From Eledone cirrhosa (taxonomy: Eukaryota), in the NCBI GenBank assembly GCA_964016885.1, contig OZ024740.1:70804001-70868000 (forward strand): DNA of 64,000 nucleotides. Reading direction: 5' to 3'. The notes under the pieces are model-generated. The model saw only the letters and a list, made by a program, of their open reading frames with translations, searched no databases and was not told the origin of the DNA. Each line of letters opens with the position of its first letter. The first letter of the stretch is position 1. A program made the position numbers and the translations under genes. This document shows positions 10,200 to 12,512 of this stretch, one piece after another.

Positions 10200-10492
10200 C
10201 ACAGACACACACACACACACACACATATATATATATATATGTATATACATATATATATATATACATATATATACATATATATATGCATATATATATATAC
10301 ATATATATATATATATATATATATATATATATATATATATATATATATATATATATATATATATATACATACATATATATATATATATACATACATATAT
10401 ATATATATATATATATATATATATATATATATATATATATATATATATATATATATATATATATATATATATATATATATATATATATATAT
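10200..10492. repeat. (CA)n-(TA)n compound microsatellite
   Basis: Direct inspection. Confidence 0.95.
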
Positions 10493-10692
10493 AGGAACCA
10501 GTAAGACCCCGACAGCTGAGCTCAAGCCGTTTCGACGGCTAATTCTGGACTCAGTCCAGAATTAGCCGTCGAAACGGCTTGAGCTCAGCTGTCGGGGTCT
10601 TACTGGTTCCTATTACCCACTCTACTACCTCAAGTATTGAGTACTTTGGTGCGTTATGGTCCACCTGGTTCCTTACCACATTTCCTTCGTTA
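10491..10692 (+). mobile_element. Palindromic module A (perfect 61-bp inverted arms, 1-nt centre at 10552) plus about 80-bp tail; putative non-autonomous Penelope-like element
   Basis: 10491-10551 is the exact reverse complement of 10553-10613; same arm and tail recur at 11451-11633 (-) and 58389-58915; flanked by (TA)n. Confidence 0.7.
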
Positions 10693-11055
10693 TATATATA
10701 TATATATATATATATATTATTCAAAATGTTAATAAATGAAAAATATTCTCATAATCAAAATATATATTTTATTAAACATATTTCAAAGGTACTATGGTGT
10801 TTAAGTACGTTTTCATTTATTAACATTTTGAATAATATTAAAAACTCCAGAAAAATCCTTTGTTGAGTGCTTCTAAGTGCTTCTAATCTATTGTAATATT
10901 GTATTCGTTGAGTAATCAACGAACCATATTAATCTTTGGTTATGTATATATATATACATATATATATATATATATATATATATATATATATATATATATA
11001 TATATAGAGAGAGAGAGAGAGAGAGAGAGAGAGAGAGAGAGAGAGAGAGAGAGAG

Positions 11056-11422
11056 AGAATAGAAAACGAAAAATCAGTGATGCATCAGAACTCAATTTAT
11101 TGTGTGTTACAATTGTTTCGCCGGCGGTCAGCTCGAGACACGATCATTGTGTGGATCTGTCGGAGCATATTCTCTCACTCTGAGAGAATATGCTCCGAAA
11201 TCATTGGACGTGTCTGTCGAACCTGCGGGTCCAGAATCCGACAGATCCACACAATGATCGTGTCTCGAGCTGTCCGCCGGCGAAACAATTGTAACACACA
11301 ATAAATTTAGTTCTGATGCATCACTGATTTTTCGTTTTCTATTCTATCATACTCTGCTCTGTAAGAGCATAGAGTGCTCAACCGGCATACCGCCTATGGA
11401 AGCAACTTAGCTACCATCAGAC
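11056..11422 (+). mobile_element. Palindromic module (109-bp arms 11056-11164 / 11237-11345) plus tail
   Basis: Near-perfect inverted arms, internal 18-bp hairpin, tail ending in (TA)n. Confidence 0.65.
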
Positions 11423-11450
11423 ATATATATATATATATATATATATATAT

Positions 11451-11633
11451 AACGAAGGAAATGTGGTAAGGAACCAGGTAGACCATAACGCACCAAAGTA
11501 CTCAATACTTAGGGTAGTAGAGTGGGTATAGGAACGAGTAGGACCCCGACGGCTGAGCTCAAGCCGTTTCAACGGTACCTTATTAGCCGTCGAAAGGGCT
11601 TGAGCTCAGCCATCGGGGTCCTACTCGTTCCTA
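11451..11633 (-). mobile_element. Second copy of palindromic module A (opposite orientation)
   Basis: Tail 11451-11527 and arms about 11528-11576 / 11583-11633 homologous to 10491-10692. Confidence 0.75.
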
Positions 11634-11723
11634 AACGTTTATATATATATATATATATATATATATATATATATATATATATATATATATATATATATAT
11701 AAACGTTTGTATATATATATATA

Positions 11724-12137
11724 TATAAATGTTTGTATATGTATAATAAAGCCAAAACAATGCAGGTATGGACATAGAATAAAGAATGCAAATGCAAAAG
11801 ATATTGTTGACAATTAGTCTTTTACCTTAGATTTATTTAAATGTCCTTAATTTTCGAGATAATATCTCTTCTTCGGAGGGAAGTAAAGCGGTTAAACCAG
11901 TGTTCAAGCTATTTAGAACACTGGTTTAACCGCTTTACTTCCCTCCGAAGAAGAGATATTATCTCGAAAATTAAGGACATTTAAATAAATCTAAGGTAAA
12001 AGACTAATTGTCAACAATATATTTTGCATTTGCATTCTTTATTCTATGTCCATACCTGCATTGTTTTGGCTTTATTATACATATACAAACATTTATACCT
12101 CATTACACAATGCTTCAAGTGAACTATAACTTCCTCC
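11724..12137 (+). mobile_element. Palindromic module (182-bp arms 11724-11905 / 11916-12097) plus tail, with hammerhead-like core
   Basis: Inverted arms with about one visible mismatch; CCT-CCGAAGA-AGAGAT/ATCTC-GAAA-ATTA-AGG at 11942-11976. Confidence 0.7.
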
Positions 12138-12512
12138 TATATATATATATATATATATATATATATATATATATATATATATATATATATATATATATAT
12201 ATATATACATATATTGTTATACTTGGGGAGGGTCATATTGTTGTAATAATATTGCCAGAAATAATAACAGAACACACTCACTATTTGGTTGCAATATATA
12301 TATATATCAAGTAGGAATATTTTCGAAACAGCAAGCGGGTTTGAAATTAGAAATACGTTAATACTGATCTTTTTCCATTTCTCCGAGGGTTCTTAACCCC
12401 AATATCAGGCTAAATAATTTCTTTAATTTCTTTAGTCAAAATACGGCGATAGCTTATATTTCTTATATATATATATGTGTGTGTGTGTGTGTGTGTGTGT
12501 GTGTGTGTGTGT

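What the first reader, a model, noticed from the sequence alone, without database searches (positions are those of the whole stretch)
10491..12290. Cluster of 'inverted arm - arm - tail' palindromic elements stacked in dinucleotide arrays: candidate microsatellite-targeted, ribozyme-bearing retroelement system
Seen: four palindromes of three unrelated sequences lie within 1.7 kb, separated mainly by (TA)n/(GA)n. The same design recurs at 13.2, 37, 44.3, 45 and 58.4 kb. In each, one arm stops where a short unique tail (about 20-80 bp) starts on the other side, and several arms contain CUGANGA...GAAA cores. Established: Penelope-like elements carry minimal type I hammerheads in pseudo-LTRs and often insert with an inverted 5' pLTR and a 3' tail. 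Inference: many ORF-less PLE or retrozyme-like families share a (TA)n target and a fold-back second-strand mechanism ending at a fixed arm/tail boundary. I do not know whether these specific families are catalogued.
Basis: partly seen in the sequence, partly recalled or inferred. Interest (0 to 1): 0.75.

Follow-up and report, generated by a model that had tools for sequence, protein, structure and literature searches.

The report
Stacked head-to-head Penelope retroelement stubs
The four palindromes are real and are short head-to-head end pieces of three protein-coding Penelope-like jumping genes piled into TA repeats, a known kind of insertion; their ends and joints suggest each was likely written by copying the element's RNA twice, once from each cut DNA strand, which offers a test of how these elements insert.

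Summary
Observation confirmed, interpretation half right. The palindromes at 10494-10690 (A), 11059-11423 (B), 11452-11633 (C, A subfamily) and 11728-12137 (D) are not separate ORF-less or retrozyme families. Each is the 3' pseudo-LTR end of a coding Penelope-like element: A/C of a young Hydra-clade element (3531-bp tandem unit, 717-aa ORF), B of a second Hydra family, D of a canonical RT+GIY-YIG family. Only D holds a hammerhead core, a U4C variant; A/C start inside the ribozyme's loop II and lack its first half. The arm/tail boundary is fixed, but is likely a start point of reverse transcription, not a stop: 13 of 13 long two-armed insertions have one tail end and one boundary end with independent inner ends, and the tail-less arm reaches further 5' in 21 of 31 two-armed copies. 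A truncation hot spot with an extra G (26 of 100 versus 0 of 49 at two downstream controls, but 18 of 100 five bases downstream) suggests a capped RNA 5' end. Stacking was not above chance in 1 Mb. Architecture, clade and TA target are published; this scan reached the same reading earlier on other DNA.

The parts
10225..10493 (.). (TA)n target array left of A
10494..10551 (-). A tail-less arm: inverted copy of Hydra family 1 pLTR positions q59/61 to q1 (q1 = 10553)
   Evidence: 100% to the parent unit of L286
10552..10552 (.). single C at the centre, absent from the parent (which has T before q1); fits a cap-templated C on the tail-less cDNA (inferred)
10553..10690 (+). A tailed arm q1-138: 3' half of a type I hammerhead (stem II 3' strand, GAAA 10571-10574, stem III, predicted cut after 10593, stem I 3' strand), boundary about 10611-10613, 77-79 bp tail with a 13-codon upstream ORF start at 10656
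10718..10940 (+). older fifth arm-arm-tail palindrome (arms 10718-10835, 75% alike) of another repeated family; parent ORF not sought
10941..11058 (.). (TA)33 then (GA)26; a (GA)n run sits at the boundary end of the inverted arm in 7 of 30 B loci
11059..11179 (-). B tail-less arm with an internal skip of about 38 nt at a short shared word
11181..11423 (+). B tailed arm: pLTR end of Hydra family 2; boundary about 11345; GAAA plus palindromic stem III present, no CUGANGA found
11452..11633 (-). C: A subfamily palindrome in reverse orientation (tailed arm 11452-11576, q138-q14; tail-less arm 11582-11633, q9-q60)
11728..11905 (-). D tail-less arm (ends 40 nt before the tail end); mirror hammerhead core at 11876-11852
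11905..12137 (+). D tailed arm: pLTR of a canonical RT+GIY-YIG PLE; minimal hammerhead 11945-11969 (U4C variant); tail holds the ORF start codon at 12110
12214..12292 (-). single tail-less arm of the 44.3-kb family, (TA)n on both sides
58062..58914 (+). A-subfamily insertion whose palindrome runs about 310 bp into a copy of the left host flank before joining an A tail piece (q69-138): likely snap-back of one cDNA plus priming at the tail

Best explanation
The palindromes are short head-to-head pLTR ends of three coding Penelope-like retroelements in (TA)n arrays, each likely made in one event in which both cut DNA strands primed reverse transcription of the element's RNA. Shown: parent elements, two fixed outer ends per family, one end of each kind per insertion, independent inner ends, TA flanks. 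Inferred steps: (1) the GIY-YIG endonuclease cuts both strands of (TA)n; (2) one 3'-OH primes at the tail end and the other at the arm/tail boundary, so the tail is the stretch between two start sites; in family A both sites are followed by TAT in the RNA; (3) both cDNAs run toward the RNA 5' end and stop independently, in family A mostly at a likely capped start site 59-61 and 138 nt away, inside hammerhead loop II; (4) the two cDNA 3' ends are joined head to head with 0-6 nt overlap, loss or filler, sometimes after one cDNA snaps back on itself; (5) every insertion leaves (TA)n on both sides, so later ones can land beside it. The stubs are likely dead by-products; A and C would not self-cleave because they lack half the core.
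For: Parents: A continues through a 1.2-kb 3' UTR into an RT-EN ORF; tandem unit 3531 bp, 717 aa, 22 full-length ORF matches in 20 fetched loci 98.8-100% identical. B lies about 1.7 kb behind a Hydra-type EN in L308, L310, L311, L314 and, interrupted, L306 (5 of 9 loci). D lies between an ORF end and the next ORF start in L136 and behind a 477-aa RT/GIY-YIG frame in L131. Fixed ends: D inverted arms end at -39 to -43 in 13 of 13; B tail-less ends at -71 to -86 in 24 of 25; A arms in the unselected 1 Mb end at tail (23) or boundary (12) of 47, with TATATA behind 31 of those 35. One end of each kind in 13 of 13 long two-armed insertions; inner ends such as 1123/2392, 1521/3355, 3194/1922; L296, L304 and (by 49 nt) L305 cannot be copied from either single cDNA. 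Tail-less arm further 5' in 21, tailed in 6, equal in 4 of 31 two-armed copies. Hot spot: 66 of 100 listed matches stop within about 5 nt of q1; direct TA junctions 418 at q1, 137 at q6, 16 at q35. Extra G 26 of 100 at q1 versus 0 of 16 at q35 and 0 of 33 at q42 (Fisher p 1.3e-5); host G after TATATAT 5.1%. Literature: a Poseidon PLE cuts and extends both strands from two RT start sites that bound the tail (PMC11167929); an extra G marks capped full-length L1 insertions (PMC11702581).
Against: The extra G is also frequent at q6 (18 of 100; q1 versus q6 p 0.23), so it is not unique to q1; q6 may be a second start site, which is untested. At q42 a G cannot be told from a q43 junction plus G. 16 of 100 listed junctions leave a 5-6 nt asymmetry typical of a snap-back loop, and the 58-kb case needs a snap-back. 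Deletion of palindrome centres after insertion could produce some asymmetry. The 20 long loci were chosen for long open frames. One cross-family joint (L152) has two boundary ends. Stacking is not above chance inside 10-kb stretches (4 gaps under 1 kb of 16 versus 4.0 expected; variance/mean 1.24). In the Poseidon assay priming needed no homology, unlike the TAT match seen here.
Confidence: 0.75

Rival explanations
1. One cDNA is made, folds back on itself and copies itself until it stops at a fixed site.
For: 5-6 nt centre asymmetry in 16 of 100 listed junctions; near-perfect centres in many short copies; the 58-kb palindrome runs into host DNA.
Against: Tail-less arm extends further 5' than the tailed arm in 21 of 31; 3 of 13 long insertions cannot be built from one cDNA and several others need loops over 1 kb; single arms ending at the boundary exist alone.
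Confidence: 0.12
2. The stubs are non-autonomous families that spread as whole palindromes from a few master copies (or as retrozyme-like RNAs) using PLE enzymes.
For: 23 of 40 scored hits are 100% identical to A including the centre.
Against: That exact junction occurs at only 39 sites against 15,636 matches to the arm start; centres vary among unselected copies; no tandem monomers with two hammerheads, the retrozyme criterion of bioRxiv 10.64898/2026.07.22.740005, were seen in the fetched loci.
Confidence: 0.07
3. Palindromes formed after insertion by inverted recombination between two neighbouring single-arm insertions in the same TA array.
For: Single arms of both kinds exist, and TA arrays collect several elements.
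Against: Pairs are head to head without TA between, of one subfamily, and with one end of each kind in 13 of 13; chance pairing would often give two like ends.
Confidence: 0.03
4. Assembly or library fold-back artefacts.
For: No long read was available to span this locus.
Against: Boundaries follow element biology in three families; arms differ by point changes in older copies (C, B, 10718); short-read contigs cross A-type centres with many different joints (one study, possibly the assembly's own source, so not independent).
Confidence: 0.03

Closest known systems
Hydra clade of EN+ Penelope-like elements, incl. Hydra-1_Obim of Octopus bimaculoides (Craig et al. 2021, PMC8557442)
   Same: C-terminal EN, DKT, RW[K/R], CxCX5C linker, CxxC and CxH, no CCHH, (TA)n target, hammerhead in the pLTR; inverted 5'-truncated copy with one tail.
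   Different: A's unit is 3531 bp (described ones under 3 kb; Hydra-1_Obim 2507 bp, 'no pLTR'); protein related but visibly different from Hydra-1_Obim in the supplement passages; tail 77-79 bp, not 30-40; hammerhead has U3:A8, a 6-bp stem III and a 37-nt loop II.
Poseidon element PAc in vitro (Frangieh et al. 2024, PMC11167929)
   Same: Two RT start sites bound the tail; both strands cut and extended; tail includes the first codons (as in D); hammerhead not needed.
   Different: That paper does not derive the inverted arm from the two sites in the text I read; here genomic copies pair the two sites one per strand.
Penelope insertion units of Adineta vaga (Arkhipova et al. 2013, PMC3846280) and D. 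virilis promoter (Schostak et al. 2008, PMC2377424)
   Same: Inverted pLTR, optional tail, junction palindromes, Inr-like start inside the pLTR.
   Different: They explain palindromes by self-priming on an antisense template; the copies here fit two sense-RNA primings better.
L1 twin priming and cap-derived G (PMC11702581)
   Same: Both DNA ends prime RT; microhomology joints; extra G at capped 5' ends.
   Different: In L1 the second priming is at variable internal sites and gives an inversion without duplication; here both sites are fixed and the arms duplicate each other.
Metazoan non-LTR retrozymes (bioRxiv 10.64898/2026.07.22.740005)
   Same: Short, PLE-derived, hammerhead-related.
   Different: Retrozymes are head-to-tail tandems with a whole hammerhead per unit; these are head-to-head stubs with coding parents and mostly no whole core.

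Membership tests
EN+ Penelope-like element (A/C parent) | single ORF with RT and C-terminal GIY-YIG-type EN, tandem units forming pLTRs | tested here: met
   717-aa ORF with YRDD and AYIG; 3531-bp tandem. No Pfam match; 2049 homologues at E<=1e-20, mostly 39-43% identical and unnamed.
Hydra clade (A/C parent) | RWK motif present, GxKF absent | tested here: met
   RWR at residue 37 (K to R), no GxKF (criteria)
Hydra clade (A/C parent) | DKT instead of DKG | tested here: met
   DKT at 117
Hydra clade (A/C parent) | CxCX5C linker, CxxC and CxH flanking, no CCHH | tested here: met
   motifs at 572, 670, 698
Hydra clade (A/C parent) | (TA)n target | tested here: met
   30 of 30 selected loci; 31 of 35 unselected fixed ends
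Hydra clade (A/C parent) | canonical hammerhead in the pLTR | tested here: inconclusive
   type I fold predicted (z -0.41) with a U3:A8 core in 67 of 69 matches, a variant reported in PMC4209133; cleavage untested
Hydra clade (A/C parent) | placement in the Hydra clade by RT tree | not tested
   reference proteins were seen only as supplement passages
Hydra clade (B parent) | EN with CxCX5C, CxxC, CxH upstream of the pLTR | tested here: met
   33-39% identical to the A EN; RT half not recovered in linkage
Hydra clade (B parent) | canonical hammerhead | tested here: not met
   no CUGANGA or 3:8 variant within 630 nt of L307; only a 3'-half-like motif
Canonical C-terminal EN+ PLE (D parent) | GxKF, DKG, YVDD, GIY-YIG with CCHH, ORF start in pLTR/tail | tested here: met
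Canonical C-terminal EN+ PLE (D parent) | assignment to Penelope/Poseidon, Neptune or Nematis | not tested
   no reference set in hand; no intact D ORF was fetched
Non-LTR retrozyme | head-to-tail tandem of ORF-less units each with a whole type I hammerhead | tested here: not met
Naiad | N-terminal EN and CxC linker | tested here: not met
   EN is C-terminal in the A and D parents and ends the ORF in the B parent

The most novel reading that the evidence does not exclude
Penelope-like elements insert by symmetric twin priming from two fixed RNA sites, and most stubs are paired strong-stop cDNAs running off a capped 5' end, like retroviral minus-strand strong-stop DNA. In Hydra family A the promoter fires inside loop II of the hammerhead, so only read-through RNA from an upstream tandem unit holds a whole ribozyme, and its cut at q41 lies just upstream of both priming sites: a switch that removes the priming sites from full-length RNA and could limit the element's own spread.
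Probability: 0.4. Interest if true: 0.65.

Novelty: new member of a known kind. Interest (0 to 1): 0.42.

Why it matters
How Penelope-like elements make inverted pLTRs and one-sided tails is named as open in PMC8557442 and PMC11167929. This genome holds thousands of young insertions and identical intact ORFs, so the twin-priming, cap and split-ribozyme predictions can be tested directly. It also explains an abundant class of palindromes (48 per Mb sampled, 26 sequence groups) that will keep being flagged as new ribozyme elements. The cluster itself is ordinary debris.

Tried and rejected
Rfam scan: no match reached a gathering score among the 150 of 177 rows shown, and no hammerhead family was among them. 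No PLE ORF was recognised among 56 window frames of 120 aa or more, read by eye. Idea that identical A copies come from a palindromic master: rejected. Idea that the A centre is the hammerhead cut site: rejected, q1 is in loop II and the cut is predicted at q41; TA junctions at q42 number 33 (tailed only) versus 16 at q35 and 418 at q1, at most a weak signal with different patterns. Idea of a tRNA-derived SINE for A: dropped once the parent ORF was found. Idea that B is the 3' UTR of an RTE-type LINE (L100): rejected, the link is in 1 of 10 such ORF ends. Idea of a systematic arm mismatch in D: not seen. Clustering beyond chance: not shown. Cross-family joints as proof of two RNAs: ambiguous, target deletion fits too. 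No RNA holder listed. Contigs do not span the whole stretch and TA/GA runs are uncovered. Protein atlas gave no answer. Tail hairpins fold but are weak against shuffles except in B (z -2.3; A -0.15, C -0.62). Paper searches for twin priming with Penelope and for head-to-head PLE mechanisms found no statement of this model; subscription journals, Repbase and Dfam were not searchable, and parts of the Craig supplement were cut.

Full report
Observation. The window lies in a 3.0-Gb genome; an octopus host is inferred from its repeats and from earlier scan notes, not shown. Self-comparison finds four palindromes in the finding, A (10494-10690), B (11059-11423), C (11452-11633, an A subfamily in reverse) and D (11728-12137), a weaker fifth at 10718-10940 and a lone arm at 12214-12292, separated by (TA)n and one (GA)26. 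In 100 evenly spaced 10-kb stretches there are 89 local inverted repeats; 69 touch TATATA on one side (random intervals 13.9%) and 48 have the arm-arm-tail layout (4.2%) (a few of the 89 are low-complexity noise and were not removed). The 48 fall into 26 sequence groups, and 10 match a hammerhead core pattern. So the design is real and common. Gaps under 1 kb were 4 of 16 against 4.0 expected: the pile is not shown to be special.

Parents. D: in L136 an ORF end, a 3' UTR, D and the next ORF follow each other, with the start codon in D's tail; L131 has a 477-aa RT and GIY-YIG frame followed by D ending at the boundary. GxKF, DKG and CCHH are present; the finer clade was not tested. A: five of 38 unselected A sites continue upstream, in L176 into an RT-EN ORF. 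A protein search gave 150 scored hits at 97-100%. Twenty fetched loci show a 3531-bp tandem unit and a 717-aa ORF with RWR, DKT, CxCX5C, CxxC, CxH and no GxKF, the Hydra-clade marks of PMC8557442 section 11. B: five of nine fetched loci carry a second Hydra-type EN upstream. The Craig supplement lists one octopus Hydra family, Hydra-1_Obim; its protein passages look related but different, and four DNA words from A, B and D were not found there (line breaks and cut runs limit this).

Ribozymes. The A parent has a predicted type I hammerhead with a 5-bp stem I, a U3:A8 core (67 of 69 matches, mostly near-identical young copies), a 37-nt loop II and a 6-bp stem III; GAAA and stem III stay conserved across subfamilies while the bases after them vary (25 rows, one unrelated). 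U3:A8 is a described PLE variant (PMC4209133). A and C begin inside loop II and lack the first half. D has a minimal core with U4C (canonical in L131). No core was found for B.

Two fixed ends, one per side. D inverted arms end 39-43 nt before the tail end (13 of 13), B's 71-86 nt (24 of 25), A's at q59-61. Of 19 long A insertions in 20 loci, 13 have two arms with both ends in view (one spans two loci with a 2.6-kb gap unseen), 3 have one arm and 3 run out of view; all 13 have one tail end and one boundary end, the long arm may be either, and the inner ends differ by up to 2 kb. Three cannot be copied from either single cDNA. Among 31 two-armed copies not selected on A (duplicates and one selected locus dropped, window A and C kept; four inner ends corrected by hand where the alignment ran through the centre and one), the tail-less arm reaches further 5' in 21, the tailed arm in 6, equal in 4. 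This fits two primings and agrees with the in vitro result that a Poseidon element extends both strands from two start sites that bound the tail (PMC11167929). It does not fit a single fold-back that stops at the boundary.

Why A stubs are so short. A 25-mer at the arm start has 15,636 exact matches; of the first 100 listed, 34 continue into the parent and 66 stop within about 5 nt of q1 (hand count, both strands, one base excluded at -9). The window's exact junction occurs at 39 sites, which explains the identical hits without a master copy. Direct TA junctions number 418 at q1, 137 at q6, 16 at q35. The base between TATATAT and q1 was none 54, G 26, T 13, A 4, C 3 of the first 100; host G in that context is 5.1%. 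G was 0 of 16 at q35 and 0 of 33 at q42 (p 1.3e-5) but 18 of 100 at q6 (p 0.23 against q1). An earlier looser pattern gave G 64, C 36 of 100 and is confounded by host TG runs. An extra G marks capped L1 5' ends (PMC11702581), and PLE promoters lie in the pLTR (PMC2377424, PMC3846280). A capped start at q1, perhaps also q6, is the likely reading; the match to an initiator consensus is recalled, not tested.

Snap-back is not absent. Sixteen of 100 junctions leave a 5-6 nt asymmetry, and at 58062-58914 the palindrome copies about 310 bp of the left host flank before joining an A tail piece. I read this as a way of joining two cDNAs, not as the source of the boundary. Cross-family joints (7 of 20 loci, examined) can be explained by target deletion.

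Comparison and verdict. Architecture, clade, TA target and two start sites are in print; the pairing of the two sites one per strand, the cap and the promoter inside the ribozyme were not found in eight paper searches. I reached this reading before opening the scan's notes; those notes report the same on other DNA and are not independent support. Papers seen: PMC8557442 passages, section 11 and supplement passages; PMC11167929 parts 1-2 of 4; bioRxiv 10.64898/2026.07.22.740005 part 1 of 5; passages of PMC2377424, PMC4209133, PMC3846280 and PMC11702581. Verdict: new members of a known kind, with a testable mechanism; interest 0.42.

Noticed in passing
window 58062-58914: Palindrome with 390-bp arms that include host microsatellites and pieces of two other repeats, centred on an A-subfamily start and followed by an A tail piece; looks like a cDNA that snapped back and copied past its own priming site into host DNA.
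   Followed up: partly
window 10941-11058; L103, L109, L110, L112, L119, L120: (GA)n runs sit exactly at the boundary-primed end of B arms in 7 of 30 loci and (CA)n at the tail end in most; the element may generate microsatellites by slippage at priming.
   Followed up: partly
   Followed up: partly
L141, L144, L147, L148, L152, L153, L154: A arms joined at their 5' ends to arms of other hammerhead-bearing families without TA between.
   Followed up: partly
window 11634-11727: Between C and D, two short AACGTT(TG) pieces separated by TA runs resemble the first bases of a D tail-less arm: possible false starts of priming.
   Followed up: no
window 12515-12735, 40138-40358, 50721-50858; cores at 12631-, 44498-, 51399-: Further pLTR-like families with canonical minimal hammerhead cores.
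   Followed up: no
window 60009-63410 (minus): GC-rich, interrupted LINE with AP endonuclease and RT frames; related pieces in L125 and L137.
   Followed up: no
window 52730-53281: Mariner-like transposase fragment (by eye from the translation).
   Followed up: no
window 5450-5620, 19674-19870, 26416-26620, 28091-28800 and more: A 190-bp SINE-like repeat in more than 15 copies; at 28445-28795 and in L204 and L254 it forms its own palindromes without TA flanks.
   Followed up: no
L121-L140: At least five further GIY-YIG PLE families with long open frames, several as head-to-head pairs (L126, L134); 10,597 first-look GIY-YIG candidates genome-wide.
   Followed up: no
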